Below the pieces are notes generated by a model. It was not told the DNA's origin. It did not search any database and saw nothing but the letters and a program-made list of their open reading frames with translations. From IMG/VR virus record IMGVR_UViG_3300022746_000001: a stretch of DNA of 41,728 nt, one strand, 5' to 3'. Made by a program: the position numbers and the translations under genes. Each line of letters begins with the position of its first letter. The first letter of the stretch is position 1. This document shows positions 1,185 to 36,784 of the stretch, piece after piece. Source of the DNA: a virus. Its lineage: Duplodnaviria > Heunggongvirae > Uroviricota > Caudoviricetes.

Positions 1185-1202
1185 ATAGTCACTTGTGACT
1201 TA
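1185..1202. promoter_or_regulatory. Palindromic operator copy ATAGTCAC-TT-GTGACTTA, overlapping -10 TATACT (1182-1187, minus) upstream of hfq
   Basis: Matches the 18-bp consensus. The -35 is poor (GTGCAG). Confidence 0.75.
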
Positions 1203-1931
1203 TTCTGCACCGGAGAAGTCAATTGCCTCTCTAACTACCCGTTCAGGGAAATGTTCGATCGCTTTCTCTATACGTATCGCGTCTTCAATATAGAGTGCAG
1301 CATTGAGTGCGAAGTGTGGTCGCTGCCTAGTTTTGATGCTGTCGATGATGAACTGCTCATAGGCCAACTGGTCGGCATGCCCAAAGAAGTTGGAGACCTT
1401 GTAGCGATCGTCCACTGCGAACTGCATACGTGCGCCACACTCCTCTTCCCACGCCATCATAATGTCCGTAATCATTTCAGGGTTGGTCATTAAATGGCTT
1501 GGGCGAGCTGGTTTAGTCCATCCGTTTGCGATGCACCAATCCATGCCTTTCATCAGGTAGAAGTCGTAACGAATGCCGAGCTTGTCGATGTGCTGACGTA
1601 GTCGCCAGAAAGACAGCCGTTCTTTAGACTGCATGAAGTCTAAGCCCTTGAAGCCTCGCATGTACGGGGCCGACCTTGCGTCTTGGGTAATGGAGATGAA
1701 GCGCGAATATGCCTTGTTGTAGCAGTGCGCAAGAAAGTAAGTGGCCTTTGTCGGGTGCATCCGACGATAGTCAAACCACTTTACCTGCATGAGAGCCGAC
1801 TCCTTCTTCAGCAGAGCGTCCGTGACGTTTTGAATCGCCAGGACTTCTGCGTGAAGAAAGTCTATGTCGTGCCCGTAGAAGTAGCCGAGCCACTCCCCGT
1901 GTTTGGGTTCTGTATTTGGGGTTTGGGTCAT
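1200..1931 (-). CDS. Hypothetical phage protein (243 aa)
   Basis: Long co-oriented ORF with no recognised motif. Confidence 0.8.
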   Translation of the reverse strand: MTQTPNTEPKHGEWLGYFYGHDIDFLHAEVLAIQNVTDALLKKESALMQVKWFDYRRMHPTKATYFLAHCYNKAYSRFISITQDARSAPYMRGFKGLDFMQSKERLSFWRLRQHIDKLGIRYDFYLMKGMDWCIANGWTKPARPSHLMTNPEMITDIMMAWEEECGARMQFAVDDRYKVSNFFGHADQLAYEQFIIDSIKTRQRPHFALNAALYIEDAIRIEKAIEHFPERVVREAIDFSGAE

Positions 1932-1946
1932 CCGTGCCGTCTGTAA

Positions 1947-1964
1947 TAAATCATGATTGACTTA
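1947..1964. promoter_or_regulatory. Degenerate operator copy TAAATCAT-GA-TTGACTTA
   Basis: 15 of 16 palindrome-arm positions are not all matched: 3 mismatches to consensus. Intergenic, 15 nt upstream of the 1931 start. Confidence 0.45.
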
Positions 1965-1981
1965 TTTTAGATAGCGTTTAG

Positions 1982-2007
1982 TTAATCTACGAGGGAGACT
2001 TTATCCC
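1982..2007. repeat. Intergenic element A, copy 1 (TTAATCTACGAGGGAGACTTTATCCC)
   Basis: 24 of 27 columns identical to 37170-37196. Confidence 0.6.
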
Positions 2008-2016
2008 CGCACCCAA

Positions 2017-2769
2017 TTATTCGTCTTCACCCACCTCATAGGCTTCGACAATCTCTTGCACCAAGCCGGAACGCACCACGTCCTGACGGGTGAAGCGAAC
2101 ACATTTGACTGATGGGATATGGGAGATGCGCTTCACGGCGTCGTCCAGACCCGATTGTCCGTGAATGTCTTTCTGACGAATGTCGCCGTTGACCACGACT
2201 TTGCAATCGTGACCGATGCGGGTCAGGAACAGCTTCATTTGGTTGGGAGTGGTGTTTTGCGCTTCGTCCAAGATCACGAAGGCTCGCTTGAAGGTGCGAC
2301 CGCGCATGTATGCAAGGGGTGCTGCCTCGATGCGGCCGATCTTGAGCATGTACTCGACAAAGCTCTTGCCAAGTCGCTCATTGAGAACGTCGCGGAATGG
2401 TTGGAGATAGGGGTCAAATTTGTCTTCGATTTCGCCAGGGAGGAAACCGAGTGACTCGCCTGCTTCGACTGCGGGTCGGGTGATGATGATCTTGTCGATC
2501 ACGCCTTCTTGAAGGGCTTGTGCTGCCAAAGCTCCACAGAGCCAAGTCTTACCTGTACCAGCGGGGCCGGTGGCGAACGTCAGTTCAAAACTTTTGATGG
2601 CGTTAATGTATCGGCGCTGCGATTCATTCAGAGGTTCGATTGGACTTTTGTCTACCTTCTCTGCCCTGACGGGGGCGGCGTAACCATCCCCTTCGTCTAT
2701 TTGAGTGTTAAAACGTAAGCCTTTACGTTTAACTTGACTGCGGGATGGTTGCGCTTTTTGTTTAGCCAT
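2017..2769 (-). CDS. phoH: PhoH family ATPase
   Basis: GPAGTGKT Walker A, IIITRPAVEAGESLGFLPG, APLAYMRGRTF, ILDEAQN, TRIG and GD motifs, all diagnostic of PhoH. Confidence 0.97.
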   Translation of the reverse strand: MAKQKAQPSRSQVKRKGLRFNTQIDEGDGYAAPVRAEKVDKSPIEPLNESQRRYINAIKSFELTFATGPAGTGKTWLCGALAAQALQEGVIDKIIITRPAVEAGESLGFLPGEIEDKFDPYLQPFRDVLNERLGKSFVEYMLKIGRIEAAPLAYMRGRTFKRAFVILDEAQNTTPNQMKLFLTRIGHDCKVVVNGDIRQKDIHGQSGLDDAVKRISHIPSVKCVRFTRQDVVRSGLVQEIVEAYEVGEDE

Positions 2770-2802
2770 GCGTTGCTGCCCTTAAATTGTTACTGCGCCA
2801 CC

Positions 2803-2832
2803 ACTATACCTCAGTCAGTGGTGACGTATCAA
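2803..2832 (-). promoter_or_regulatory. sigma70-like promoter TTGATA-N18-TATAGT with operator TCAGTCAG-TG-GTGACGTA (2811-2828) in the spacer
   Basis: Read from the sequence upstream of phoH. Confidence 0.65.
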
Positions 2833-2839
2833 TATAAGG

Positions 2840-4165
2840 TTACAAAACAGTCAGCGTTTTTGGAATGGAGCCTTCGTGTTCGGCAGGATTGCGATAGTAG
2901 AACTTGCCGCCGGAAACAGCGAAGTCTGTCACGCTCACGTAATCAAAGTTTGTCGCTTTGGTTTCGGTATCGACGTTAACCATCACAAAGCCGTTGTGCC
3001 AGCGCTCGCCTTCGCAGTACGAAGCGGAGCGACGATGACCGGAGCCGAGCTGGTGCCACTCATACGGGCCGTAGATGGGGCTGAACTCGCTCCACACTTG
3101 ATGGCGATGATGATGGCCGTTCACGCCAGGCAGACCCATGTTACGTGCATGTGGGAAGTGGTGAATCAGGACGGACTCGTAATAGATTTTGTAGTTCGTT
3201 GCCAACTCACGTTCGAAGTCTCGCTTGGTGAATGCGGCGAGATCAGCTTTGGCGATGTAGTTGATTTCGAACTTGTCCAAGCCAAGCAGCTTGGCGATTG
3301 TGAAGCCGTGAAGGTCGGACAACACAGCTCGGAGCGCAGGCGTAGCGTCAGCCAATTGCCGTAGCATCCGAGCTTCGTGGTTGCCTTCAATGAAGTCGAT
3401 TTGAGTGTTGGGACAGGCTTCGCGCAGTGGGCCGAGAATCTTCTCGTGTGCGAACTTGATGCGCCCCACTACGTTCCATTCGCGCGGGTCAACACCATAC
3501 TTGCCAAATTCAGGGAGGTCGAAAATGTCGCCAGCCAAAACGATCACATCTGGCTGTACGCGCTTGGCTGTGTCAATCAGGACGCGCAGATAGAACAGGT
3601 CAATCTCAACGTCATGGAGGTCGGAACACACCAAAATCGTTTTGAATCGGGTGTTGTTGTTGCGGATGTACTTGTCTGCAAAATCAGCGCGTTCAATGTT
3701 CAGGCGGCGATAGTGGTCAACCGATGCGTGTTTCGCAATGGCGCGCTCATGTGCGTGTTGCTGACGTGAGAGCTTGATACCTGCTTGACGCTTGAACTCT
3801 TCGAACGTACCGAAGTAGCGGTTCCAAGTTGATTCGGAGATGGCGCTATGGTTGCGGAAGTAATTGCGAGTGACGATCTTCTCGGGGTCGATCTCCGAGA
3901 TGCGTTGCAGCTCGTTGATACAGTCGTCAGGCGTCCAATGCTCCATGAATTTTGAAGCATCTTCTGACATGGGGTTGTCGTTGATGTTGGCGCGACGAAT
4001 TAGCTTCGGCGCGGTTGGGTCTGACTTACCCATTGTGCGAATGAAACCAGCCTTGTTTCGCACTGTCTTGATTGAGATACCGAAGTGTTCCGCAACATCG
4101 GCAACAGACGGGAATTTCTCCAGATCGTTATAAGCCTCTGTAAATTGTTTAATCTCCGCTGTCAT
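2840..4165 (-). CDS. Calcineurin-like metallophosphoesterase with N-terminal HTH-like region
   Basis: SDLH, GDIFD, GNHE and GHHH metal motifs. The N-terminal SVADVAEHFGISIKTVRNK is HTH-like. AAGGAG RBS. Confidence 0.88.
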   Translation of the reverse strand: MTAEIKQFTEAYNDLEKFPSVADVAEHFGISIKTVRNKAGFIRTMGKSDPTAPKLIRRANINDNPMSEDASKFMEHWTPDDCINELQRISEIDPEKIVTRNYFRNHSAISESTWNRYFGTFEEFKRQAGIKLSRQQHAHERAIAKHASVDHYRRLNIERADFADKYIRNNNTRFKTILVCSDLHDVEIDLFYLRVLIDTAKRVQPDVIVLAGDIFDLPEFGKYGVDPREWNVVGRIKFAHEKILGPLREACPNTQIDFIEGNHEARMLRQLADATPALRAVLSDLHGFTIAKLLGLDKFEINYIAKADLAAFTKRDFERELATNYKIYYESVLIHHFPHARNMGLPGVNGHHHRHQVWSEFSPIYGPYEWHQLGSGHRRSASYCEGERWHNGFVMVNVDTETKATNFDYVSVTDFAVSGGKFYYRNPAEHEGSIPKTLTVL

Positions 4166-4186
4166 AAAACTCCTTGTTAAAACGAA

Positions 4187-4618
4187 TCAGGCCGTGAATG
4201 ATTTGCCTGCTTGTAAGTCCGCCAGCTTCAGGCCGCCTGTGTACTGAAAGTGCGCAAGTTCTGGAAATGACTTCCATCGCTTTGCCCATTCAAGGCCACA
4301 GGACTCACCTATCGCACCAACCTTTTCCCACAACTTTCCGTCTTCGCCAGTGGTTCCCCAGACAGGTTTGCCATTGACTAGCGGCACTACATCGACTGCC
4401 ACTCGGAAGTTATGAAAAGATTGCCCAGGCTTGGCGTTTGTCACGATCTTGCCTGGAGCAGTACGACCTTGGGCATACAGCGCGGCTTGCGATTCCATGT
4501 CCCGAAAGGTGCTTGTCACAAGAAGATCAATGCCTGCTGTGTGACAGGCTTCGATGAACTTGCGAACCTTTGCGGCGACGACTGGATGAAGTACGTCTAA
4601 GCTACGACTGTTGACCAT
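4187..4618 (-). CDS. Endolysin, peptidase M15 (L-Ala-D-Glu peptidase type)
   Basis: R..ESQAALYAQGRT, SFHNFRVAVD (SxHxxxxAxD) and ELAHFQ motifs. AGGAG RBS. Confidence 0.93.
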   Translation of the reverse strand: MVNSRSLDVLHPVVAAKVRKFIEACHTAGIDLLVTSTFRDMESQAALYAQGRTAPGKIVTNAKPGQSFHNFRVAVDVVPLVNGKPVWGTTGEDGKLWEKVGAIGESCGLEWAKRWKSFPELAHFQYTGGLKLADLQAGKSFTA

Positions 4619-4632
4619 GATTGCTCCTAAGT

Positions 4633-4650
4633 ATAGTCACGGGTGACTTA
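4633..4650. promoter_or_regulatory. Operator copy ATAGTCAC-GG-GTGACTTA, overlapping -10 TATACT (4630-4635, minus) upstream of the endolysin
   Basis: Matches the consensus. The -35 is poor (GCGCAG). Confidence 0.75.
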
Positions 4651-4660
4651 TGCTGCGCCA

Positions 4661-5116
4661 TTAACGAATGGCGTTATATGCGTCGATACAGGCGTTCAAT
4701 TGCCGGATGGCTTTGTCGCCGTCGTTGGTGATGGCGATAAGGTTGTCAGAAGTCTCTGCGTCAAGTTCGGCTCGCGCTTCTGTCCGATTTCCGGTGGCAG
4801 AGGTGGAACCTTCGCAGGTGTATATGGTTGTGGGGACTGACAGCCGACGAGTGCCAGCGCGAACATCAGCGCGCAGCCTAGTGATTTCAGTGTCTGCATC
4901 TTTGTTTGCCTTTGCGAGTTGAAAAGCCATGTCATTGATTTGGGCTGTATGCGCTTGTTCTTCGGCGCGCGCCTTCTCATTCAGCTTTGAAATGGCGACT
5001 TGGTTTTCAAGTTGAGACGCCTCGTAACCTTTGTGATGGCCTAGCCCAAATGCGAAAAGCGTGGATAGAACCACGCCTAAGATCACGTAAGGACTGGGCA
5101 GTGAAGGAAGCGTCAT
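4661..5116 (-). CDS. Rz: Rz-like inner-membrane spanin
   Basis: N-terminal TM helix, coiled coil, LRADVRAGTRRLSV and QLNACIDAY C-terminus. A lipoprotein gene is nested in another frame. Confidence 0.9.
   Translation of the reverse strand: MTLPSLPSPYVILGVVLSTLFAFGLGHHKGYEASQLENQVAISKLNEKARAEEQAHTAQINDMAFQLAKANKDADTEITRLRADVRAGTRRLSVPTTIYTCEGSTSATGNRTEARAELDAETSDNLIAITNDGDKAIRQLNACIDAYNAIR
4696..4899 (-). CDS. Rz1: Rz1-like outer-membrane spanin lipoprotein, nested in Rz
   Basis: MQTLKSLGCALMFALALVGC lipobox followed by a Pro-rich mature region. Fully embedded out of frame in Rz. Confidence 0.88.
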   Translation of the reverse strand: MQTLKSLGCALMFALALVGCQSPQPYTPAKVPPLPPEIGQKREPNLTQRLLTTLSPSPTTATKPSGN

Positions 5117-5553: not shown

Positions 5554-5555
5554 CT

Positions 5556-5975: not shown

Positions 5976-6009
5976 TGAAGCTCCGATGTGATTAAGCGCG
6001 GCGTCCGAC

Positions 6010-6375
6010 TCACATCAGAGTGCGGTATTTGTAAATCGTGTGGAGATACTGCTGGATGATTTCGTCGATGATGTTCTGGATGGTGGTGTCCTTGATTGGC
6101 GAAACCAAATAGCGGTTTGCGTCAATCCAGGCCACTTGCGCTTCCAGAAGTGTGAGCGAGTCGGTTTCAATATCCAACTGATCTAGCGAAATGTTTTCGA
6201 TGATGCCGTTGCGACCCTGATAGGTTTCAACGAACTTGTCTGCCAAGTCCACGATTGCATCGTAGAACTCACCCAGTGCCATGTGGCGCGCATAAACGGT
6301 TGTCCGCAGGTGTTCTCGGTGAGTGAAGTTACGGGCAAAGAACATCAGGGAGACAAATTCAGCGGCTTTTGACAT
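6010..6375 (-). CDS. Phage ferritin/Dps-like four-helix protein (DUF5856-like)
   Basis: H-x2-H...H-x-ALGEFYD..DLADKFVETYQG pattern typical of phage ferritin-like proteins. Recognised from memory. Confidence 0.6.
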   Translation of the reverse strand: MSKAAEFVSLMFFARNFTHREHLRTTVYARHMALGEFYDAIVDLADKFVETYQGRNGIIENISLDQLDIETDSLTLLEAQVAWIDANRYLVSPIKDTTIQNIIDEIIQQYLHTIYKYRTLM

Positions 6376-6392
6376 TGGTTAATCCTTATACG

Positions 6393-6436
6393 AAAACGGC
6401 ATTTCGGGCGAGATTGTCGCCTGAAAATGCCGTTTT
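6393..6436. repeat. Long imperfect inverted repeat (about 19-20 bp arms, 5-nt loop)
   Basis: AAAACGGCATTTCGGGCGA-GATTG-TCGCCTGAAAATGCCGTTTT. May act as a terminator after the fibre genes. Confidence 0.8.
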
Positions 6437-6457
6437 TGTCAAGTCACTCGTGACTTA
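6413..6457 (-). promoter_or_regulatory. Promoter TTGACA-N18-GACAAT with operator CAAGTCAC-TC-GTGACTTA (6440-6457) overlapping the -35
   Basis: Read from the sequence upstream of the ferritin-like gene. Confidence 0.7.
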
Positions 6458-6787: not shown

Positions 6788-6789
6788 TT

Positions 6790-12196: not shown

Positions 12197-12514
12197 TTAT
12201 CCCAGGGCAATCGCCATTGCGGTTGCGAAGTCTGCTGAAGCCATAATGTCAACGCCATCAACCTTGTCGGCGTCTGGTGCTTTACCCACAGCACCGTTGA
12301 AATCCATCATCAGCTTCCATGTGTTCGGGCCTGTTGCGGTCAGAATGAAAAGCTGTTGCAAGTCGGAGCGAAAGCAAGGCATGCCAACCCACACGTTCGC
12401 GGTTGGGAAAGCTGTGCCAGAGTTTTGGGAAATGGCCGTTGCCAAGTTGTCCAAAATCAATTGGCGAGACTCGGTGAGAGTCTTTGTATCTGGAATGTCC
12501 TGATAGCCTTGCAT
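12197..12514 (-). CDS. Tail-associated hypothetical protein
   Basis: NSGTAFPTAN..VGMPCFRSDLQQLFIL anchor-like motif. C-terminal ATAMAIALG. Confidence 0.7.
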   Translation of the reverse strand: MQGYQDIPDTKTLTESRQLILDNLATAISQNSGTAFPTANVWVGMPCFRSDLQQLFILTATGPNTWKLMMDFNGAVGKAPDADKVDGVDIMASADFATAMAIALG

Positions 12515-12523: not shown

Positions 12524-12569
12524 TAAGTCAGTAGTGACTGATTGTATAGAGTTTTTGGAACGTCATCAA
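12524..12569 (-). promoter_or_regulatory. Promoter TTGATG-N17-TACAAT with operator TAAGTCAG-TA-GTGACTGA (12524-12541) over the start site
   Basis: Read from the sequence. Confidence 0.72.
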
Positions 12570-14430: not shown

Positions 14431-14880
14431 TTAGGACAGGGTGAAGGTGAAGACTGTCGTCAGAGAGTCGTCAACGCCTTTGTTCACCACTGGGAACACG
14501 ACGCGATCCAGCATGGTGCCAACGGAAGCGGCATTGAAGATACCTGCTTCAGTCAAAGCGCCAGTTGCGTCACCAGCAGGGAAAGTAGACGTAAATGTGA
14601 ACGCCTTTGTGCCAGAGGTGTGCGCGTACACGGCGACGTTACGCTTAATCTCTGTCACGAGTGCAGTTTGTGCTGTGGCTGCGGCGGTTGTACCTGTACC
14701 GACAGCGGTGTAACCCATCACGGATGGACGGCTAGACGACTTGCCAATTGCGTCGGCAATGAAGTCAAAGCCAACGTCAACGATGATGTTGTCTTTTTGG
14801 GTCACTTCAACAGTGCCATCTGCCTTGGTCAACATCAGCGTCAGGGCGCCGTGCAGTTTCAGGGTATCTTTGAGTTGCAT
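14431..14880 (-). CDS. Tail-associated structural protein (hypothetical)
   Basis: N.IV..G...IA.......AVGTGTTA...QTAL..E...LTEAGIFNA.....MLDR.VF.VVNK pattern seen in fibre-anchoring proteins. AAGGAG RBS. Confidence 0.75.
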   Translation of the reverse strand: MQLKDTLKLHGALTLMLTKADGTVEVTQKDNIIVDVGFDFIADAIGKSSSRPSVMGYTAVGTGTTAAATAQTALVTEIKRNVAVYAHTSGTKAFTFTSTFPAGDATGALTEAGIFNAASVGTMLDRVVFPVVNKGVDDSLTTVFTFTLS

Positions 14881-14908: not shown

Positions 14909-14937
14909 ATTCTAAGTCACTTGTGACTGATTTGCAA
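14909..14937 (-). promoter_or_regulatory. Promoter TTGCAA-N17-TAGAAT with operator TAAGTCAC-TT-GTGACTGA (14913-14930) in the spacer
   Basis: Read from the sequence. Confidence 0.78.
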
Positions 14938-21054: not shown

Positions 21055-21390
21055 TTAGTATTCAAATACTTGTTCAAACTTGCAGCTAACCTCAATCGTG
21101 CCGCCATTCTGAGACGTGCTGTATGAGCGACACACGAATGTGCCCTCTTCTGACAATGGGGTTGTCCAGGTGAAAGCCTCGGAAGCGCCACGCGCCTTCA
21201 GGAACGCGATGATTGCGCCGGCCTCCGTGTAGCTCCGCTCGAACTTCAAACTCCACTTTTGTGGCTGGTTGTTGATGCCGGCAGGAACACGCAATTCGTA
21301 CCCGTCACCAAACTTGGTGACGTTTACTTTTGGCTCAACGTCTTGTTGGGAACCCCGATCAGGGAACCAAGTGAATACTGGCTTTGTCAT
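21055..21390 (-). CDS. Minor tail protein M
   Basis: FGDGYELR..AGIN...W.L.F...I..FL..RG..EAF.WT.P and F.QVF motifs. Confidence 0.95.
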   Translation of the reverse strand: MTKPVFTWFPDRGSQQDVEPKVNVTKFGDGYELRVPAGINNQPQKWSLKFERSYTEAGAIIAFLKARGASEAFTWTTPLSEEGTFVCRSYSTSQNGGTIEVSCKFEQVFEY

Positions 21391-21397: not shown

Positions 21398-21427
21398 ATT
21401 ATAAGTCACTGGTTACTTATAAAGCAA
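21398..21427 (-). promoter_or_regulatory. Promoter TTGCTT-N18-TATAAT with operator TAAGTCAC-TG-GTTACTTA (21402-21419) in the spacer
   Basis: Perfect -10, only 7 nt before the gpM ATG. Confidence 0.72.
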
Positions 21428-26499: not shown

Positions 26500-26526
26500 G
26501 AAAAAGCCCCGCACGAGGCGAGGCTT
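26500..26526 (-). terminator. Intrinsic terminator after the tail tube gene
   Basis: AAGCCTCGC-CTCGT-GCGGGGCTT followed by TTT. Confidence 0.75.
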
Positions 26527-26541: not shown

Positions 26542-26559
26542 TCAGTCAGTTGTGACAGA
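26542..26559. promoter_or_regulatory. Operator copy TCAGTCAG-TT-GTGACAGA
   Basis: Degenerate consensus match between tube and chaperone genes. A -10-like TAGAAT lies downstream on the minus strand. Confidence 0.55.
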
Positions 26560-26575: not shown

Positions 26576-27451
26576 TTAGTAACCGCCGACTGCGAACAGA
26601 CGACCGCCGTTGGCAGAGTCTGGGTAGCCGTTAAATTCCACGTTGTAGATACGCTCGTTTTCCAGCTTGTAAGCAAACTGGAGCGCACCGGAGGTAGCGG
26701 CCAGAGGAATGAAGAAGTCTTCAGACTTGTCATCAGCAGCTTTGCCAACTGGGTGCAGACGCAGCTCTTTGGCGATTGCCAACAGGTCAGTACCCACGCC
26801 GTTAGTCACGGTCACGTACTTGCTGGTTGGGTCGATACCGCCAGTCAGAGTAGCGCCAGACAGAGTCACCTTGGTGCCGGCAGTGCCTGCGCCCAGAGTG
26901 AAAGCGTTACCAGCGGCAGTCTTCTCACCAGTTGTGCCGAACACCAAGGCAGAGCCGTAGGTCACAGTCACGATGGCGCCAGATGCGCTGTATGTTGCGG
27001 CGGCCAAAGCAGGGCTTGTGGAGGCGCTCAGAACAGCAGCGAGGTTAGCGGCAGTAGCGGCCACAGAACCACCGATGGTCACTTCGTCGGCAGCGGTAGC
27101 TGTCGTTTTGAAAGTGATGGTCTTGCCGTTCACAACGATGGTGTCGTTCGCCACGACAGAACCCACAGTGATCGAACCACTAGCCACAGCACCGCCGACA
27201 GTTGTCAGGGTAGCGCCAGGCATAATGGCAACCATGTTTTCGAGAGTCGTTTCAGCCAGGGGAACCTTAGCCATAACGTCGCGACCCATGATGTATTCGT
27301 TGATCGTGGTCTTACCGAACTGATCGACGTTCACTTTGTGGGTGTCGGTTTTCACTTGAACTTCAACGCCGCCCTGGGTGTAGCCCAGATCAACGCCGTC
27401 GAAGAAAACTTGGCAAACGCCCAGTTTTACGTTTTTTGTACTAGATGACAT
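26576..27451 (-). CDS. Major tail tube protein with a 120-aa internal insertion
   Basis: KNVKLGVCQV.F.GVDLGYTQGGV.V.V.T N-terminus and ...ERIYNVEFNGYPD C-terminus. Ala/Thr/Gly-rich central domain. Confidence 0.92.
   Translation of the reverse strand: MSSSTKNVKLGVCQVFFDGVDLGYTQGGVEVQVKTDTHKVNVDQFGKTTINEYIMGRDVMAKVPLAETTLENMVAIMPGATLTTVGGAVASGSITVGSVVANDTIVVNGKTITFKTTATAADEVTIGGSVAATAANLAAVLSASTSPALAAATYSASGAIVTVTYGSALVFGTTGEKTAAGNAFTLGAGTAGTKVTLSGATLTGGIDPTSKYVTVTNGVGTDLLAIAKELRLHPVGKAADDKSEDFFIPLAATSGALQFAYKLENERIYNVEFNGYPDSANGGRLFAVGGY
26844..27219. repeat. 16-bp direct repeats GTCAG(A/G)GTAGCGCCAG at 26844-26859 and 27204-27219
   Basis: 15 of 16 identical, 360 bp apart. Both encode GATLT. 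Confidence 0.8.
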
Positions 27452-27479: not shown

Positions 27480-27540
27480 TAAGTCGGTCGTGACTTACGC
27501 GCGTGGCCGCGACTATAGCACAAAAGCACCCAAAAGTCCA
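27480..27540 (-). promoter_or_regulatory. Promoter TGGACT-N17-TATAGT (27512-27540) with operator TAAGTCGG-TC-GTGACTTA (27480-27497) downstream
   Basis: Upstream of the tube gene, which has an AAGGAG RBS. Confidence 0.72.
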
Positions 27541-28393: not shown

Positions 28394-28394
28394 C

Positions 28395-31025: not shown

Positions 31026-31042
31026 ATTTCTTCCTTCCAATG

Positions 31043-31070
31043 AAAAAGGGTGGGTCTTTTGAACCCACCC
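31043..31070 (-). terminator. Intrinsic terminator after the major capsid gene
   Basis: GGGTGGGT-TCAAAAG-ACCCACCC followed by TTTTT. Confidence 0.85.
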
Positions 31071-31071
31071 C

Positions 31072-31100
31072 ATTCTAAGTCAGTTGTGACTTACCCGCAA
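31072..31100 (-). promoter_or_regulatory. Promoter TTGCGG-N17-TAGAAT with operator TAAGTCAG-TT-GTGACTTA (31076-31093) in the spacer
   Basis: Read from the sequence. Confidence 0.72.
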
Positions 31101-31103
31101 GGC

Positions 31104-32015
31104 TTAGATGTTTGTCACACCTTTGAGACGAGCGATCGAACGGCTCGACTTCAATGCCAAACCTGTATACCACTTGAGGCGGATACGGGTTGCGTCTTTG
31201 TTTTGCACAGTGCCGATGTTCTCGACCACGATGCCAGCGTCATTGCCGCCGTACAGACCGTGCAAACCATCCAACTCGTTCAAGCGCAGTGCGTACACTG
31301 AGCAAGTGTCGGTGTTGGTGCCTTGGTCTTCGCCGCCATCCAGGAACTCGTTCATGATGACTGGGATGCCGTTGTGAGTCAGCATTGGGCGACCGAAGTT
31401 TTCCAACTGTTGCATCACAGCGTCAGTACCGTAAGTTGCGCGCAGCAAGCCACGGAATGCGCGGATTGTGCCGCGTCGCATCACGATCACGTCAGCACCG
31501 TTAGGCACTGCGTCGCACAACTGATCCAACATCGACAAAGTCAATGCGTTACCGTTAGTGCCGGCAGACACCAACTGAGTATTAGGAGCAGCGGCGGCCA
31601 GAGTTGGCAGACCGTCGAAGGCTTTAGGGTTCACGCTGGAATCACCAGTAGCCAGGGTTTGATGGAAAGCACGAGCCACAGCTTTGGCCTTCTTAGCGAT
31701 TTGGATCGCCATTTGGTCATTGGTGTCGCCCATTGTGGTTTGCAGGAACTTGTCCACGTCCACATCGCCAGCCAGGATACGCAGCTTGGCAACAACTTCA
31801 GTGAAGGTTGCGGCGCTTTCGTTCACAGCGTCGTTAGGGTCGAGGAAGTCAGCAGAACCGAGAGTGTTTTCACGGTTGTAGACGTATGCTTTGCCGTTCA
31901 CGCCGGTGAATGGGAGCACAGAGAACAGGTCATCGCGTTCGATGATCTGGTCGATCACGCCAGAGACGAGCTGGTTGTTACTCAGCTTCTCGGCTTCAGC
32001 TTTCAGAAGAGCCAT
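31104..32015 (-). CDS. Major capsid protein (HK97 fold)
   Basis: Follows the scaffold gene and precedes a strong terminator. AEAEKLSNN...KLRILAGDVDVDKFL...GIVVENIGTVQNKDA.R.R.KWY closely recalls SSU5-like capsids. Confidence 0.95.
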   Translation of the reverse strand: MALLKAEAEKLSNNQLVSGVIDQIIERDDLFSVLPFTGVNGKAYVYNRENTLGSADFLDPNDAVNESAATFTEVVAKLRILAGDVDVDKFLQTTMGDTNDQMAIQIAKKAKAVARAFHQTLATGDSSVNPKAFDGLPTLAAAAPNTQLVSAGTNGNALTLSMLDQLCDAVPNGADVIVMRRGTIRAFRGLLRATYGTDAVMQQLENFGRPMLTHNGIPVIMNEFLDGGEDQGTNTDTCSVYALRLNELDGLHGLYGGNDAGIVVENIGTVQNKDATRIRLKWYTGLALKSSRSIARLKGVTNI

Positions 32016-32086
32016 TTAATGTCCTTTCAGTGGAGACGAATTGATAATTCGGTACTCAAGTCGCTCTAAGTCACCGATGGGGCATG

Positions 32087-32130
32087 ACTGTAGCACAAAA
32101 TGCCACAGAAAGCAAGTCACCCGTGACTTA
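32087..32130 (-). promoter_or_regulatory. Promoter TTGCTT-N17-TACAGT with operator CAAGTCAC-CC-GTGACTTA (32113-32130) overlapping the -35
   Basis: Upstream of the major capsid gene. Confidence 0.78.
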
Positions 32131-32136
32131 TTTTAT

Positions 32137-33033: not shown

Positions 33034-33108
33034 CTGTCACCTTTCTGACCGTTCGCTTGGTCATTGAGTTGTTAATGGAACGACAAGTCGCTATGTCGTT
33101 CCGAGGGT

Positions 33109-34746
33109 TTAAGGCTTATTGTTTTGGCCTTGCTTACTAGCCTTCGGATCGTTCTTGACTTGAAGGTTTCCCTTCGTGTTGCCGCCTTGACTTAGGGTCT
33201 CTTGAGACCCTGTAGTTGGGACAGCTTCAAGAGGATCGGTAGGCCAATCTTTGAGAGCTTTTTCCATCTTCGCTCGGGCCGATTTCTCGATCTGAGGGAA
33301 GAGCTTGTCCAGCACGGACTTCATCTGTTCCTGGCGCACGGTCTCTGGTGCGTCAATCAGCATGAGGCGAGCTGCAATATCGAACTCATCGTAGAGTCCA
33401 CGAGTGTCGAAGTCATCTGGGTAGGACACGAGGTCTTCCGCAGATTCAGGCTTCTCACCGTGCCACAGAGCTACGATTTGCGCGATCTTGTTTTCAATGA
33501 CTTCCAGGCTGTCCGCTTTGGCAGCCAGAAGTGCATTCACGCGCTCGAAGTCAAAAGCCTTCGCAACGCCTGAACTGTTGTCGATTCCCACTGCGTTGTC
33601 TTGCTTGGTGCGTTCGCCTGCCAAGCCGACAGTGTGGTAAATCTCGTTAATGATCTTGTTGATGGCGGCCAGAATCATCTGGGCCTGCTTTGGGTCTGGC
33701 GACAGGTAGAACGGAGCTGCGCCGCCCTCGCCGTCGTACAAGAAGATGCGCTTGGTGCCCATCTCTGTCAGTTTGGTGTAGTTGTCTTCGCCTGGCAGCA
33801 CGTTCTGAGCTGGCATCGCCAGTTGCGAGAACGTCTGATCTTGAATGATGGCGTCCAGGTTTGACAGGTAGTTCGCTACCGCGCGGTCGAGGTAGGCAAT
33901 GTCGTCAATCAACGATTGCGCACCGTACTCTTCGTCCGAAATCACGTTGTCGGCTAACACGACTGGCACGACGCCCAAGCCATGAACGCCGCTACCGATG
34001 AGCTTGACCACTTTCTTGCGGCCTTCTTTAACCTCTTCGTAGAGCGACCAGTCGTTCTTTGTCCACAGGCGGAATCGTTCGATTTCATCGCCAGATGACT
34101 CTAAGGGGTCAGCATCGTCGCGCTCACACTCTTGAATCAATGCCCACATCAGCTCGCCTTGATCGTCAAAAGCGTAGTCCAGCAATTGCTCTGGGCCGAC
34201 GATGTAGGCGTAAGTGCGCGCGCCAGCCTTCTTCTCGTCTGCTTTTGAGACAATTGGCTGACCGCTGGTCTTGTTGTCGATCACGATACCGATGCGGCCG
34301 TAAATCGAAGTCTTCTTTGAAATCTGACGCGACAGGTCTTTGATACCCAAGCCATTGAGTGTGGCCTTCTTCCAGAAGCGCTTTAGCGCCTCGGGCGCGT
34401 CTTTCTCGTTGCGTTGGACGTTTTGCTTGAACAGGTACTTGTTCAGCAAGTCCACCACTTCACGCGAGTGGTTGAATCGGTAGGCGCGAGCCAAGCGATC
34501 TGCAAATTCGGTGTCACCTTCCTTGATGTAGCGGAAGATGTTCTCTTTGAACCACTCGCGGCCACCTTCGTAGGTGTCTTCGAGGAAGTCCCAGTGATCG
34601 ACGTTCTCAGCGTACTCAGGATGGCGGCGCTCAATCAAGCGGCGCAATTTCTTTTGGTCGTCAGTCAGCGGTGCGGTTCCGGCAGACGCAAGCGCGTCCT
34701 TCGGGTCAACCGACATGCTTTGATTGGGTTTCAATTGAAATGACAT
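33109..34746 (-). CDS. Portal protein
   Basis: 545 aa directly after TerL. HPEY...W.FL.D.YEGG, HGLGVVPVV and SGVAK.FD motifs. Confidence 0.93.
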   Translation of the reverse strand: MSFQLKPNQSMSVDPKDALASAGTAPLTDDQKKLRRLIERRHPEYAENVDHWDFLEDTYEGGREWFKENIFRYIKEGDTEFADRLARAYRFNHSREVVDLLNKYLFKQNVQRNEKDAPEALKRFWKKATLNGLGIKDLSRQISKKTSIYGRIGIVIDNKTSGQPIVSKADEKKAGARTYAYIVGPEQLLDYAFDDQGELMWALIQECERDDADPLESSGDEIERFRLWTKNDWSLYEEVKEGRKKVVKLIGSGVHGLGVVPVVLADNVISDEEYGAQSLIDDIAYLDRAVANYLSNLDAIIQDQTFSQLAMPAQNVLPGEDNYTKLTEMGTKRIFLYDGEGGAAPFYLSPDPKQAQMILAAINKIINEIYHTVGLAGERTKQDNAVGIDNSSGVAKAFDFERVNALLAAKADSLEVIENKIAQIVALWHGEKPESAEDLVSYPDDFDTRGLYDEFDIAARLMLIDAPETVRQEQMKSVLDKLFPQIEKSARAKMEKALKDWPTDPLEAVPTTGSQETLSQGGNTKGNLQVKNDPKASKQGQNNKP

Positions 34747-34754
34747 GGGTGCCT

Positions 34755-34783
34755 ATCTTATATGTCAGTGGTGACTTAGTCAA
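34755..34783 (-). promoter_or_regulatory. Promoter TTGACT-N17-TAAGAT with operator TATGTCAG-TG-GTGACTTA (34761-34778) in the spacer
   Basis: The -10 lies 8 nt before the portal ATG. Confidence 0.75.
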
Positions 34784-34787
34784 GCGA

Positions 34788-36035
34788 TTAAATCGAGATG
34801 CCACCAATCTCGACCTTACGCACTGGGAATTCCAGCTCGATGCAGTAGCCGCCGGCGTCAGCAGAGTGTTCTGTGCCAGCGGATTTATCCACTTCGCGGG
34901 TTCCCTTTTTGTAGATGGTTTGCTCAAGTGCGCCAATGAAGTGTTTGCACTTCTCGTCGATACGCAGTCGAATCTTCCCATTGGCATCGCGCAACATGCG
35001 GTTTACAGCGTTTACACGGTCTGCAACCATCGGGTGCTTGCGACGGTATTTGATGCGCTTGAAACCCTTCTCGCGAAGAATGTCCATGTCAGTCTCGCCC
35101 CTAGCATGCTGGCGCTGGCCGCCGGCGGGGTCAGGGTAGATCGTGATTTGGTTCTGTTGACGCCAGTAGCGCTTTTCCAGCTCCTCACACACCTCTTCGG
35201 TGTTTGAGCCGAACAGCACAATCTCATCCACCGCCCACAACTCACCATTTTCTTGGGGCTGATAGATGACAGTGGACATTGGGTCGATGTTGAAGTCCAT
35301 ACCGACCCAGATGGGTAACTTTGGATTGTATGGGTATTTGCCGACGTGCGAGCCACGATCGAATGGGTAGTACACCCGTCCAGACATGGTCTCGAAGCTG
35401 GCTTCAAATTCCTGACGAAAGCTCTTTTCATCCATATCGGCACGAGCGGCCGCAATTTCCGACACTGGGATGAACGGAGATGTGATCGTGGGGAACTGCC
35501 AGGACTGCCACTGGTTAGCCTTAGTCAGCCTTGTTTCTTGGCCTTTTTTGTAAAGCTCGTACAGGTAGTTGTACGCTTTTGGGGTTCCAATGAAGATGGC
35601 ATGGCCGCCGGTATCGGCCAAGGTTGGTCGCAGAACTAAAGTCCAGACCTCTTCTGCCATGTCTTGAAACTCGTCCAGCACAAGAAAGTGGATACCCACG
35701 CCACGCAGCGAATCTGGCTTGTCTGCGCCCTTCAGCTCGATGCGGGTGCCGTTGATTAACGTGATTGTTAGGCTAGTCTCATTGACCTTGCGAATCCACT
35801 TCTTCGGGATGGCATCCATCAAGTCCACCCACATAATCTGCTTCGCCATTTTGTAGGTTGGTGCCACGTACCAGATTTTCTGCTTCTTCTTCTGGGCTTT
35901 TTTGATAATCAACACGCGCGAAAGCGCCGTCTTTCCCCAACGCCGGCCGGCCACGACTACCCGATACCGACACTCTGATCGGTAGACTTCCATTTGCTTC
36001 GGGTGAAGCGATAGTCCCAGGCGCTCACGAGCCAT
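34788..36035 (-). CDS. terL: Terminase large subunit
   Basis: VVAGRRWGKT Walker A, FLVLDEF Walker B, IGTPK, GMDFN nuclease Asp and EHSADA. Confidence 0.97.
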   Translation of the reverse strand: MARERLGLSLHPKQMEVYRSECRYRVVVAGRRWGKTALSRVLIIKKAQKKKQKIWYVAPTYKMAKQIMWVDLMDAIPKKWIRKVNETSLTITLINGTRIELKGADKPDSLRGVGIHFLVLDEFQDMAEEVWTLVLRPTLADTGGHAIFIGTPKAYNYLYELYKKGQETRLTKANQWQSWQFPTITSPFIPVSEIAAARADMDEKSFRQEFEASFETMSGRVYYPFDRGSHVGKYPYNPKLPIWVGMDFNIDPMSTVIYQPQENGELWAVDEIVLFGSNTEEVCEELEKRYWRQQNQITIYPDPAGGQRQHARGETDMDILREKGFKRIKYRRKHPMVADRVNAVNRMLRDANGKIRLRIDEKCKHFIGALEQTIYKKGTREVDKSAGTEHSADAGGYCIELEFPVRKVEIGGISI

Positions 36036-36670
36036 TAGTCTTCCTCAACTACATCGTCGTCGCCTGGATTGACGCCATTGTCCTCGTCCAGATCGACTTC
36101 GATTTCTTCTATTTCGGAGAAGCTGCGTTTGCGCAGCGTCTCGATTTGGTCGGCCGTCAATTCAGAAATGACCAGTTCTGGCACTTCGTTTTCATCGACT
36201 GCGTCTTTGTCCAGACCCAGAACGGAGTAGCGCTCTTCGCGCGCCTTCTTCAATACCGTCATTGCGGTATCCAGGGCTTTCAGGTTGTTGATGGCCGTGC
36301 TGACGGGTACGCCGTCTTGCTTGGCTTTCAGAATCTCTGCCCAAGTCAGCTTGGCAAGACCAGAAGCCATTTTGTAATGCTCTTCTTTGGTCTCTTTGAT
36401 CCTGGCGGCCAGAATCGTCGCTTCTTCGGAAACCGCTTTGGTCAAGTCTTCAGACACCACCTTTGCGATGTGTTCTTTTTTGGAGCCTTGAATGATGCCT
36501 TTGCTTTTGAAGTGGGTGCGCAAGCCCTGGCGCGATACGCCGAACTTCGCCACGAGGTCGTTGTAGGTTGCGTCGCCGGCTTCCCAGAGCGCGTCGATAA
36601 CGGCCCATGTTCGCGCAGGCAGTCGCTTTGATTTGGCTTTGGCTTTAGTTTTAGTTTTTGCTTCAGTCAT
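36035..36670 (-). CDS. terS: Terminase small subunit
   Basis: N-terminal HTH-like segment, helical core, 1-nt overlap with TerL. Confidence 0.8.
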   Translation of the reverse strand: MTEAKTKTKAKAKSKRLPARTWAVIDALWEAGDATYNDLVAKFGVSRQGLRTHFKSKGIIQGSKKEHIAKVVSEDLTKAVSEEATILAARIKETKEEHYKMASGLAKLTWAEILKAKQDGVPVSTAINNLKALDTAMTVLKKAREERYSVLGLDKDAVDENEVPELVISELTADQIETLRKRSFSEIEEIEVDLDEDNGVNPGDDDVVEED

Positions 36671-36688
36671 GGTCGGCCTTCCTCAGAC

Positions 36689-36715
36689 AAAAAAAAGGGC
36701 GTTGGAGAAACGCCC
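36689..36715 (-). terminator. Strong intrinsic terminator in the terS leader
   Basis: GGGCGTT-TCTCC-AACGCCC followed by 8 T. Confidence 0.88.
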
Positions 36716-36740
36716 AGAGGAGAAAGTCCTACTTGAGCGC

Positions 36741-36784
36741 AGTGTAGTCGAATTTATTAACATTTTCAAGTCACCCGTGACTTA
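36741..36784 (-). promoter_or_regulatory. Promoter TTGAAA-N17-TACACT with operator CAAGTCAC-CC-GTGACTTA (36767-36784) overlapping the -35
   Basis: Read from the sequence upstream of terS. Confidence 0.78.

What the first reader, a model, noticed from the sequence alone, without database searches (positions are those of the whole stretch)
1185..36784. Dispersed 18-bp palindromic operator regulon tied to sigma70 promoters across replication, lysis, tail, head and packaging genes
Seen: TAAGTCAC-NN-GTGACTTA variants at 1185, 1947 (weak), 2811, 4633, 6440, 12524, 14913, 21402, 26542, 27480, 31076, 32113, 34761 and 36767, all at gene boundaries. Ten coincide with -35/-10 pairs spaced 17-18 bp apart. 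The site lies in the spacer (2811, 14913, 21402, 31076, 34761), overlaps the -35 (6440, 32113, 36767), or sits downstream of the -10 (12524, 27480). Inference: variable position relative to the promoter fits a dimeric master repressor better than an activator. The late region appears split into many independently repressed units rather than one antiterminated operon, conceptually like the dispersed P1 C1 operators. Two sites with TATACT but a poor -35 (hfq, endolysin) could be dual-mode.
Basis: partly seen in the sequence, partly recalled or inferred. Interest (0 to 1): 0.8.

Follow-up and report, generated by a model that had tools for sequence, protein, structure and literature searches.

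The report
Dispersed repressor operators in temperate phage
An 18-base DNA palindrome sits in nearly every gap between genes of this temperate phage, overlapping ordinary promoters, and is most likely the docking site through which one phage repressor silences the whole virus; this kind of control is known, but here it appears in an unstudied group related to SSU5-type phage-plasmids.

Summary
TAAGTCAC-NN-GTGACTTA occurs 14 times (up to 3 mismatches) against 0.09 expected, and none lies inside a called gene. Five complete relatives (106-115 kb, GC 44-61%) carry 19-39 copies each, often at the same gene junctions.

The two arms vary independently (287 one-sided changes, 6 compensatory). This fits a protein site and argues against a hairpin.

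Sigma-70-type promoters are enriched beside the motif only in the direction of transcription. The motif centre falls at about -41.5, at about -19.5, or just downstream of the -10. Such varied placement fits a repressor better than an activator.

The in-window winged-helix gene is a poor candidate. The best candidate is a 148-aa 434-Cro-like XRE protein encoded about 8 kb beyond the window start, next to an integrase and on the opposite strand. Relatives keep this gene but swap the integrase for partition genes.

No binding or transcript data exist. A conserved terminator between the terminase promoter and its gene suggests antitermination also operates.

The scan had already reported this motif, with the same reading, on an adjacent window of this genome (e1-1730773). 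Verdict: a new member of a known kind (compare P1 C1, L5 stoperators, phiC31).

The parts
1185..1202 (-). Operator copy (2 mismatches). The TAA stop of gene 1200-1931 lies inside it. -10 TATACT at 1182-1187, no good -35. Upstream of the Hfq-like gene 843-1142.
   Evidence: the GACTATACT variant recurs 11 times in relatives
1947..1964 (-). Weak operator-like copy (3 mismatches) between the PhoH gene and gene 1200-1931.
   Evidence: no convincing promoter; only 1 of 5 relatives has a site at this junction
2811..2828 (-). Operator copy (3 mismatches) in the spacer of TTGATA (2827-2832) - 18 nt - TATAGT (2803-2808). Upstream of PhoH 2017-2769.
   Evidence: (score 12.1)
4633..4650 (-). Operator copy (2 mismatches). 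-10 TATACT at 4630-4635, no -35. Upstream of endolysin 4187-4618.
6440..6457 (-). Operator copy (1 mismatch). Its end, ACTTG, supplies the TTG of the -35 TTGACA (6437-6442); -10 GACAAT at 6413-6418; motif centre about -41.5. A long terminator hairpin overlaps the promoter. Upstream of regulator-like gene 6010-6375.
   Evidence: (10.3)
12524..12541 (-). Operator copy (2 mismatches) starting at the last base of the -10. Promoter TTGATG (12564-12569) - 17 nt - TACAAT (12541-12546). Upstream of gene 12197-12514.
   Evidence: (10.6)
14913..14930 (-). Operator copy (1 mismatch) filling the spacer of TTGCAA (14932-14937) - 17 nt - TAGAAT (14909-14914); centre about -19.5. Upstream of gene 14431-14880.
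   Evidence: (11.5)
21402..21419 (-). Operator copy (1 mismatch) in the spacer of TTGCTT (21422-21427) - 18 nt - TATAAT (21398-21403). The tape-measure gene's stop codon lies inside the motif. Upstream of tail gene 21055-21390.
   Evidence: 11.5
26542..26559 (-). Degenerate copy (4 mismatches) after the major tail gene, followed by TAGAAT and terminator 26506-26519.
   Evidence: strong copies at the orthologous junction in G003, G004 and G005
27480..27497 (-). Operator copy (2 mismatches) 14 nt downstream of the -10. Promoter TGGACT (27535-27540) - 17 nt - TG-TATAGT (27512-27517). Upstream of major tail gene 26576-27451.
   Evidence: (9.9); orthologous sites in 4 of 5 relatives, with the -10 located 4-14 nt upstream of the motif
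31076..31093 (-). Operator copy (1 mismatch) between the capsid gene's stop codon and terminator 31047-31071. Lies in the spacer of TTGCGG (31095-31100) - 17 nt - TAGAAT (31072-31077).
   Evidence: (8.2); a site at this junction in 5 of 5 relatives
32113..32130 (-). Operator copy (1 mismatch). ACTTG supplies the -35 TTGCTT (32110-32115); 17-nt spacer; TG-extended TACAGT (32087-32092). Upstream of major capsid gene 31104-32015.
   Evidence: a site at the orthologous junction in 4 of 5 relatives
34761..34778 (-). Operator copy (2 mismatches) in the spacer of TTGACT (34778-34783) - 17 nt - TAAGAT (34755-34760), between the large terminase and portal genes.
   Evidence: (11.5); orthologous site in 4 of 5 relatives, and SSU5's own palindrome sits at the same junction
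36767..36784 (-). Operator copy (1 mismatch). ACTTG supplies the -35 TTGAAA (36764-36769); 17-nt spacer; TACACT (36741-36746); centre about -41.5. Upstream of the small-terminase-like gene 36035-36670.
   Evidence: (11.1); a site upstream of the orthologous gene in 5 of 5 relatives
36697..36715 (-). Intrinsic terminator (GGGCG...CGCCC followed by T8) between the predicted terminase promoter and the start codon.
   Evidence: the same arrangement with different stem sequences in G002, G004 and G005, with a weaker T-tract in G003
40357..40374 (-). Weak operator-like copy (3 mismatches) at a coupled gene junction. It contains the stop of one gene and the ATG of the next.
   Evidence: possibly coincidental, since a similar GGAG-TAAGTCATGA junction occurs at L117:6701

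Best explanation
The motif is the operator of a phage-encoded DNA-binding protein, presumably a dimer. That protein acts mainly as a repressor of host-type (sigma-70) promoters spread over the whole genome, about 14 in this window and 20-40 per complete genome. Because the operator overlaps the RNA polymerase footprint at each promoter, a bound protein would block polymerase and keep replication, lysis, tail, head and packaging genes silent in the lysogen. Three placements are seen: over the -35 (centre about -41.5), in the spacer (about -19.5), and just downstream of the -10. The most likely binder is a 148-aa XRE-family protein with a 434-Cro-like helix-turn-helix. It is encoded about 8 kb beyond the window start, next to the integrase, on the strand opposite to the neighbouring genes. 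What is shown: the motif's reality, its restriction to intergenic DNA, its conservation, independent variation of the half-sites, orientation-specific overlap with promoter-like sequences, and the lysogeny context. What is inferred: that the promoters fire, that the protein represses, and which protein binds.
For: The motif occurs 14 times against 0.09 expected. Across six genomes there are 172 copies and only 8 lie inside called CDS. The same consensus is the top palindrome in genomes of GC 43.7-61.4%. This argues for a phage-encoded binder. Copies sit at orthologous junctions: terminase 5 of 5 relatives, after the capsid gene 5 of 5, before the capsid gene 4 of 5, portal 4 of 5, major tail 4 of 5. 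The arms vary independently, with 287 one-sided changes against 6 compensatory, and the flanks do not extend the palindrome. The best sigma-70 matrix score within 60 nt averages 9.06 in the forward direction and 6.86 mirrored. Scores of 10 or more occur at 52 forward sites against 6 mirrored, out of 136. The -10 start positions peak at motif positions 16-17, at 38-41, and over -27 to -4. TTG at position 16 together with a -10 at position 39 occurs in 18-19 forward sites against 0-2 mirrored. For the candidate binder, an XRE homologue is present in all five complete motif-bearing relatives and absent from nickie, which has no motif. RHEph10 has a diverged homologue and a variant palindrome. In the window's own genome the gene lies next to a 424-aa integrase on the opposite strand. 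In relatives it lies next to an integrase, or next to ParA/ParB or recombinase plus ParA. Its recognition helix, KPNIITMIKQGKTKLP, is nearly invariant in the family. The AF2 model (pLDDT 89) matches 434 Cro and 434 repressor DNA-binding domains at TM 0.79. The best solved-structure sequence match is an 'Immunity repressor protein' (8bny, E 6.5e-5). Motif-like sites lie upstream of the gene in relatives. They also lie upstream in 3 unrelated elements that carry a homologue, where 0.075 would be expected.
Against: The promoter matrix is E. coli-based and the hosts are unknown. At motif position 17 a TAnnnT hexamer is as common on the mirrored side (23 against 25), so the 'spacer' class rests on the -35 signal and the full matrix score, not on the -10 alone. 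About 40% of sites have no convincing promoter. A centre at -41.5 is also the classical class II activator position (as I recall, lambda CI at PRM). The XRE recognition helix is a family signature: 23 of 27 unrelated loci with a homologue show no motif nearby. SSU5 has an analogous palindrome but no detectable homologue. The window genome's own repressor-gene upstream region has only partial sites.
Confidence: 0.65

Rival explanations
1. The same protein is a dual-mode or temporal regulator and not a pure lysogeny repressor. It would activate the promoters where it sits at -41.5 (terminase, capsid) through contact with sigma region 4, and repress those where it sits in the spacer or downstream. 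Alternatively, a Cro-like lytic protein uses the same sites.
For: About 18-23 sites place the motif centre at about -41.5 with fixed geometry. That is the class II activator position, the one used by lambda and 434 repressors at PRM (my own knowledge). The -41.5 and -19.5 positions are about two helical turns apart. A small divergent gene next to the XRE gene could be Cro-like. In RHEph10 the homologue is co-directional with the lytic genes.
Against: The -41.5 promoters have good -35 elements (TTGACT, TTGAAA, TTGCTT) and 17-bp spacers. The operator departs from its own consensus (A to G at position 18) to create the TTG. This points to intrinsically active promoters that need repression. The two geometry classes do not separate early genes from late genes.
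Confidence: 0.15
2. The palindrome acts as a nucleic-acid hairpin: a terminator, an RNase processing or stabilising site in RNA, or a cruciform in DNA.
For: It is a perfect inverted repeat in intergenic DNA. In some sites it would lie at the 5' end or in the 3' UTR of transcripts, and several copies abut real terminators.
Against: There are 287 one-sided arm changes against 6 compensatory, and flank complementarity is no better than shuffled flanks. A 2-nt loop is sterically impossible. The motif itself has no T-tract. Promoter association is orientation-specific.
Confidence: 0.03
3. The sites are centromere or silencing sites of a ParB/KorB-type protein (as on plasmid RK2 or phage N15), or sites for the packaging-adjacent ParB-like or winged-helix proteins.
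For: Relatives are phage-plasmids with partition genes. Two ParB-like proteins and a winged-helix protein are encoded beside the terminase. KorB binds dispersed palindromes at promoters (my own knowledge).
Against: The partition modules differ in kind between genomes that share the identical motif (ParA+ParB, recombinase+ParA, or none with an integrase). The ParB-like genes are also in nickie, which has no motif. The winged-helix protein is as similar to SSU5's (47%) as to those of motif-sharing relatives (36-54%).
Confidence: 0.07
4. A conserved host factor binds the motif.
For: Nothing positive; this simply cannot be excluded without binding data.
Against: The same 16 specified bases are kept in phages whose GC content ranges from 44 to 61%, and relatives are found in Beta-, Gamma- and Alphaproteobacteria. 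The motif is absent from the related phage nickie. It does not match any host regulator consensus I know of.
Confidence: 0.03
5. The copies are a small mobile or recombinogenic palindromic element (REP/MITE-like or module-junction repeats) without a regulatory role.
For: In G001 a 94-aa opposite-strand ORF is inserted between the terminase and portal genes, flanked by two perfect copies.
Against: There is no conserved flank beyond 18 bp. Registration with the -35 and -10 elements is fixed. Positions are conserved at orthologous junctions over deep divergence.
Confidence: 0.03

Closest known systems
Phage P1 C1 repressor and its dispersed operators
   Same: One repressor with many operators scattered over a roughly 100-kb temperate phage (P1 is a plasmid prophage, like several relatives here), controlling separate promoters for replication, lysis and late functions.
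   Different: From my own knowledge, P1 operators are asymmetric 17-bp sites and C1 is not an XRE/434-type protein. Here the site is a symmetric 8-2-8 palindrome and the candidate binder has a 434-Cro-like HTH. No sequence homology was tested or is claimed.
Stoperators and the gp71-type immunity repressor of Cluster A mycobacteriophages (L5) (PMC9283540, PMC6550527)
   Same: Dozens of repressor sites in short intergenic gaps across the genome. About 40% of the sites here lack a promoter and could act as roadblocks.
   Different: Stoperators are asymmetric, orientation-dependent, bound by a monomer, and stop elongation (PMC9283540 abstract). As I recall from Mavrich and Hatfull (PMC6550527), Cluster A stoperators and repressors diversify between subclusters. 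Here the site is symmetric, most copies overlap promoters, and the consensus is unchanged across relatives of GC 44-61%.
Streptomyces phage phiC31 c repressor and its conserved inverted repeats
   Same: A palindromic site of about 17-18 bp in many intergenic loci near promoters and terminators (my own knowledge). This is the closest formal analogue.
   Different: Unrelated phage and host. Homology of the repressors was not tested. phiC31 has fewer sites and, as I recall, several repressor isoforms.
434, P22 and lambda CI/Cro operator systems
   Same: The candidate binder's N-terminal domain superimposes on 434 Cro and 434 repressor (TM 0.79, rmsd 1.7). The operators are palindromes of similar length. 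Centres at about -42 and in the promoter core are both used by those repressors.
   Different: Lambdoid operators are confined to two control regions, whereas here there are 20-40 dispersed sites. The candidate has no S24 peptidase domain, so induction is probably not by RecA-stimulated self-cleavage.
KorB/KorA global regulon of IncP plasmid RK2
   Same: A dozen or more palindromic sites at or near many promoters of one replicon, with plasmid maintenance linked to global repression (my own knowledge).
   Different: KorB is a ParB-family CTPase. Here the partition proteins differ in kind among genomes that share the motif.

Membership tests
Dispersed-operator master-repressor regulon (P1 C1 / phiC31 type, defined by function) | Many copies of one specific site across the genome, far above chance and outside coding sequence | tested here: met
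   14 copies against 0.09 expected; 172 sites in six genomes with 8 inside CDS
Dispersed-operator master-repressor regulon (P1 C1 / phiC31 type, defined by function) | Sites overlap promoters of separate transcription units | tested here: met
   Computational only. Matrix score of 10 or more at 52 forward sites against 6 mirrored, out of 136; three positional peaks. No TSS data.
Dispersed-operator master-repressor regulon (P1 C1 / phiC31 type, defined by function) | Temperate element with a dedicated repressor gene | tested here: met
   Integrase plus an opposite-strand XRE gene in the window's genome; partition or recombinase genes beside the same gene in relatives; relatives occur in bacterial genome assemblies
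Dispersed-operator master-repressor regulon (P1 C1 / phiC31 type, defined by function) | The repressor binds the sites and silences the promoters in the lysogen | not testable with these tools
XRE / 434-Cro-type HTH repressors (candidate binder) | HTH_3-type five-helix DNA-binding domain | tested here: met
   Pfam HTH_3 is weak for single sequences, but PF01381/PF12844 are recorded for many homologues. AF2 model matches 434 Cro at TM 0.79. Profile hit to immunity repressor 8bny.
XRE / 434-Cro-type HTH repressors (candidate binder) | Homodimer matching a two-fold symmetric operator | tested here: inconclusive
   The symmetric 8-2-8 site with independent half-site variation fits a dimer. The complex prediction gave no verdict.
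Stoperators (Cluster A mycobacteriophages) | Asymmetric, orientation-dependent site bound by a monomer, acting on elongation | tested here: not met
   The site is a palindrome and most copies overlap promoters. A roadblock role at promoter-less copies is not excluded.
Intrinsic terminator or structured-RNA element | Base pairing maintained by compensatory changes; a T-tract for terminators | tested here: not met
   6 compensatory against 287 one-sided changes; no extension into the flanks
ParB-parS / KorB-type sites | A cognate ParB-family protein co-inherited with the site | tested here: not met
   Partition modules differ or are absent among genomes with the identical motif. ParB-like packaging-region genes are also in motif-less nickie.

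The most novel reading that the evidence does not exclude
One operator-repressor specificity has stayed frozen across a whole clade of roughly 110-kb temperate phages. These infect hosts of very different GC content and switch between integrative and plasmid lysogeny. Relatives would then be mutually immune across genera. The same protein might also act positively at the fixed -41.5 promoters (terminase, capsid). In that case it would work together with a conserved promoter-proximal terminator in a combined repression and antitermination switch. This would be the first regulatory circuit described for the SSU5/RHEph10 phage-plasmid supergroup.
Probability: 0.15. Interest if true: 0.7.

Novelty: new member of a known kind. 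Interest (0 to 1): 0.5.

Why it matters
The SSU5/RHEph10-related phage-plasmids are a large and widespread group; Pfeifer et al. 2021 (PMC7969092) call the SSU5 supercommunity the largest set of related phage-plasmids. I found no description of how they control lysogeny. No paper in the searched library combines SSU5 with repressor and operator in this sense.

This analysis supplies a concrete and testable circuit. It gives an 18-bp operator consensus, a map of about 14 controlled promoters in this window (20-40 per complete genome), and a named candidate repressor gene. It also shows that SSU5 and RHEph10 carry their own variants of the same 8-2-8 palindrome, in part at the same gene junctions. 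In addition, the constancy of the operator over deep divergence contrasts with the rapid turnover of immunity specificities in other temperate phages.

As a category, however, dispersed repressor operators are well known, and this scan had already noted the same motif in this genome.

Tried and rejected
1. Homodimer prediction for the XRE protein gave no verdict. It is not used as evidence either way.
3. No whole genome is held for the window. An exact 40-mer of the window is not in IMG/VR. The genome's continuation was recovered only through a Logan contig that is 100% identical to window 1-3473.
4. Full-text search for the motif letters returned only primer noise. A 2026 preprint on SSU5-like heteroresistance contains none of the words repressor, operator or palindrome.
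5. Megablast against phage and plasmid collections found no close relative.
6. Extended palindromes in the flanks looked striking by eye in G001 and G003, but they are not above shuffled flanks.
7. A co-variation test compared operator position 8 with the helix variant KKG(E/D) against KQGK. It is suggestive but rests on too few sites to count (C is rare in L114 and L115, and RHEph10 has A).
8. The in-window winged-helix protein was rejected as the binder.
9. HTH_3 and family-profile searches found no homologue in SSU5, so the binder of SSU5's own palindrome remains unknown.
10. Region-wide promoter and terminator counts from the consensus scan are not above shuffles. Only their coincidence with motif sites is informative.

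Full report
OBSERVATION. The pattern TAAGTCAC-NN-GTGACTTA with up to three mismatches matches 14 places in the window. Dinucleotide-preserving shuffles give 0.09 on average and never more than 1. Site 1947 is weak. Site 26542 has four mismatches.

All 52 genes I called lie on the minus strand and cover 92.6% of the window, yet no copy lies inside a called gene. Read in the direction of transcription, three copies contain the stop codon of the upstream gene.

WHAT THE WINDOW IS. PHROG annotation gives the following gene order in the direction of transcription. First come two ParB-like proteins, ABC-type ATPases, a thioredoxin-like protein and a holin. Then come a small winged-helix protein, a small-terminase-like protein, large terminase and portal. 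Capsid, tail and tape-measure genes and fibres follow. Last come spanin and endolysin, a phosphoesterase, PhoH, an Hfq-like protein and DnaB.

The large terminase is 60-64% identical to those of Rhizobium phage RHEph10, Pseudomonas phage nickie and Salmonella phage SSU5. This places the window in the SSU5/RHEph10 group. RHEph10 and its plasmid relative pLM21S1 have been called archetypes of plasmid-like prophages (PMC4447125), and SSU5 heads the largest phage-plasmid supercommunity (PMC7969092).

THE MOTIF IS A CLADE-WIDE FEATURE. An exact-match scan of IMG/VR found the motif on several contigs of 105-118 kb. Five complete or near-complete genomes (G001-G005) have GC contents of 43.7, 56.5, 47.0, 61.4 and 60.8%. 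Each carries 19-39 copies at up to three mismatches, and the reversed-pattern control gives zero. In each genome it is the most frequent palindrome.

These genomes are syntenic with the window but deeply diverged: terminase 66-79% identical, and many proteins 25-60%. Of 172 copies in the six genomes, only 8 fall inside called genes.

Copies recur at orthologous junctions. One lies upstream of the small-terminase-like gene in 5 of 5 relatives and after the capsid gene in 5 of 5. One lies before the capsid gene, before the portal gene and before the major tail gene in 4 of 5 each.

A motif kept unchanged while base composition moves from 44 to 61% GC must be read by something the phages carry themselves.

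PROTEIN SITE OR HAIRPIN. Across the 172 copies, 287 arm positions differ from consensus on one side only. Only 6 are changed on both sides in a complementary way. Complementarity does not extend into the flanks beyond what shuffled flanks give. A two-base loop is also impossible for a hairpin. The half-sites therefore degenerate independently, as expected for a two-fold symmetric protein-binding site.

RELATION TO PROMOTERS. I oriented the 136 copies that lie between co-directional genes. I then scored the best sigma-70-type promoter within 60 nt, using the mirrored strand as an internal control. The forward mean is 9.06 and the mirrored mean 6.86. Scores of 9 or more occur at 76 forward sites against 17 mirrored, and scores of 10 or more at 52 against 6.

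The -10 start positions cluster in three places.
- At motif positions 38-41 (23 sites). Here the operator's last bases read ACTTG and supply the TTG of the -35. The spacer is 17 bp, and the operator centre falls at about -41.5.
- At positions 16-17 (23 sites). Here the operator fills the spacer and its centre falls at about -19.5.
- Over a broad range 4-27 nt upstream of the motif (about 36 sites). Here the operator covers roughly +1 to +25.

TTG at position 16 combined with a -10 at position 39 occurs 18-19 times forward and 0-2 times mirrored.

One caution applies. A TAnnnT hexamer at position 17 is equally common on the mirrored side (23 against 25). The spacer class therefore rests on the upstream TTG (19 against 3) and on the full matrix score, not on the -10 alone.

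In the window, 10 of 15 sites have a promoter scoring 9 or more, against 4.3% of background windows. The independent consensus scan hits eight of the same promoters.

All three placements lie inside the polymerase footprint, and two of them (spacer and downstream of the start) are incompatible with activation. A repressor is therefore the most economical reading. The -41.5 promoters also have good -35 elements, created by a departure from the operator consensus. This suggests promoters that are active on their own and need to be shut off.

WHO BINDS. The in-window winged-helix protein (37207-37536; Pfam HTH_27, E 6.5e-4) does not track the motif. Its SSU5 homologue is 47% identical although SSU5 lacks this motif. 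In the five relatives that share the motif it is 36-54% identical, and only 36-39% in G002 and G003.

A better candidate emerged from the complete relatives. It is an XRE-family protein of 135-160 residues and one of the few genes on the minority strand. It is present in all five motif-bearing genomes and absent from nickie, which has no motif.

The gene stands beside different lysogeny functions in different genomes.
- G001: it is followed by ParA and ParB.
- G002 and G003: it is followed by a short tyrosine recombinase and ParA.
- G004: it is next to a full-length integrase.
- G005: it is followed by two uncharacterised proteins.
Because the partition proteins differ in kind while the motif stays the same, a ParB/KorB-type binder is unlikely.

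A Logan contig that is 100% identical to window positions 1-3473 continues past the window start. After DnaB, primase, ligase and guanylate kinase it shows a 424-aa integrase. Next comes a 148-aa member of this XRE family, on the opposite strand. A 62-aa gene and CobT follow. The window's own phage is therefore temperate and carries the candidate about 8 kb outside the window.

The family's recognition region, KPNIITMIKQGKTKLP, is almost invariant in 116 homologues, although overall identity is 40-70%. The AF2 model (pLDDT 89) has a 434-Cro-like N-terminal domain (TM 0.79, rmsd 1.7) and a helical C-terminal half. The best match by sequence among solved structures is an 'Immunity repressor protein' (8bny).

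Motif-like sites lie upstream of the gene in relatives. In bacterial genome assemblies, the four loci that share this phage's replication genes are the ones that carry three or more copies of the motif. These are a 113-kb Massilia contig, a Halomonas chromosome and two MAGs. Among 27 unrelated elements with a homologue, three have a copy at up to three mismatches 150-325 bp upstream of the gene, where 0.075 would be expected.

LIMITS OF THE BINDER ASSIGNMENT. The helix is a family signature: 23 of 27 unrelated loci show no motif nearby. The window genome's own repressor-gene upstream region has only partial sites. The homodimer prediction gave no verdict. I put the identity of the binder at about even odds, and the operator-repressor reading as a whole at about 0.65.

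WIDER FAMILY. RHEph10 has a full-length homologue of the XRE protein (profile E 2e-31) whose helix differs (QSNMVTMIKKGDAK). It also has about 25 intergenic copies of a variant palindrome, T(C/A)A(G/A)TCAA-NN-TTGA(C/T)T(G/T)A.

SSU5 has about 18 intergenic copies of TA(G/A)GTAAG-NN-CTTAC(C/T)TA, with the same 8-2-8 architecture. A perfect copy lies at the terminase/portal junction and another copy lies just after the capsid gene. SSU5 has no detectable homologue of the XRE protein. Either its binder is different, or the sequenced isolate lacks it.

Between the predicted terminase promoter (36741-36769) and the start codon (36670) lies a strong terminator, GGGCG...CGCCC followed by T8 (36697-36715). 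The same arrangement occurs in G002, G004 and G005, and with a weaker T-tract in G003. It runs operator, -35, 17 bp, -10, a leader of 25-35 nt, a GC hairpin with a different stem sequence, a T-run, the ribosome-binding site, then the gene.

This resembles lambda PR'-tR'. It suggests that late transcription also needs antitermination. The late region is therefore probably not simply a set of independently repressed units. Terminators also follow the capsid and major tail genes, each directly after an operator copy.

COMPARISON AND NOVELTY. The design works like P1 C1 with its dispersed operators. It also resembles phiC31's conserved inverted repeats and, in part, L5 stoperators (PMC9283540, PMC6550527). 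The binder candidate belongs structurally with 434 and P22 repressors.

It is a new member of a known kind, not a new kind. What is unusual is the constancy of the operator and recognition helix across hosts of very different composition and across integrative and plasmid lifestyles. The exact registration of the operator with the -35 and -10 elements is also notable.

I found no published description of lysogeny control in this group in the searched library. The scan itself had already reported this motif on an adjacent window of the same genome, with the same conclusion (e1-1730773). It had also reported dispersed palindromes in SSU5-like elements (e1-453909 and e1-1906835).

Noticed in passing
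window 36697-36769 (and L067:2600-2760, L071:13640-13760 in relatives): A conserved promoter-proximal intrinsic terminator lies between the operator-bearing terminase promoter and the small-terminase-like gene. Stem sequences differ between genomes while the hairpin and T8 run are kept. This looks like a lambda PR'-tR'-type antitermination checkpoint or a short leader RNA. No antiterminator was identified.
   Followed up: partly
SSU5 record NC_018843.1 (L096-L101), e.g. 2032, 5472, 27475, 67776, 77652, 84179: SSU5 carries about 18 intergenic copies of its own 8-2-8 palindrome, TA(G/A)GTAAG-NN-CTTAC(C/T)TA, including at the terminase/portal junction and after the capsid gene. It also has 10-11 copies of AAAACAA-N-TTGTTTT. 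No homologue of the XRE candidate or any HTH_3 domain was detected in SSU5.
   Followed up: partly
RHEph10 record NC_034248.1 (L084-L089): This cultured Rhizobium phage has about 25 intergenic copies of a variant palindrome, TCAGTCAA-TA-TTGACTGA or TAAATCAA-NN-TTGATTTA, and a diverged homologue of the XRE protein at 35193-35594. It is a convenient experimental system for the operator-repressor pair.
   Followed up: partly
L075:12689-13072 (G001): A 94-aa ORF on the opposite strand, with its own promoter-like sequence, is inserted between the portal and large terminase genes. It is bracketed by two perfect operator copies, suggesting that operators may mark insertion or exchange junctions for accessory genes.
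   Followed up: no
L067:2440-2640 (G005) and the region upstream of the terminase operator in G004 (L109): Arrays of six or more (C)ATAAGT half-site-like repeats lie upstream of the terminase operator. They could be extra repressor half-sites or packaging-recognition repeats.
   Followed up: no
window about 32055-32080 (capsid gene leader): The capsid gene's 5' leader contains a block, CATCGGTGACT(T)AGAGCGA(C/G)TT, that is conserved in G002 and G003 despite diverged surroundings. It may be a translational or RNA-stability element.
   Followed up: no
L117:9956-11904; L069:2858-5252; L078:11925-14825; L106:12060-13371; L111:9546-11325: The lysogeny module is swapped between relatives: full-length integrase (window genome, G004), recombinase plus ParA (G002, G003), ParA plus ParB (G001). 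The adjacent XRE gene is constant throughout. The same phage backbone therefore alternates between integrative and plasmid prophage lifestyles.
   Followed up: partly
window 40357-40374 and L117:6701-6718: Weak operator-like sequences at translationally coupled junctions read GGAG-TAA-GTC-ATG-A. They contain the stop of one gene and the start of the next, and may be coincidental look-alikes and not true operators.
   Followed up: no
L114:5327-6085: A 252-aa protein between the CobS-like ATPase and the DNA polymerase III alpha gene has a weak Sigma70_r2 hit in the precomputed table. This is a possible phage sigma factor that could add a temporal layer to transcription.
   Followed up: no
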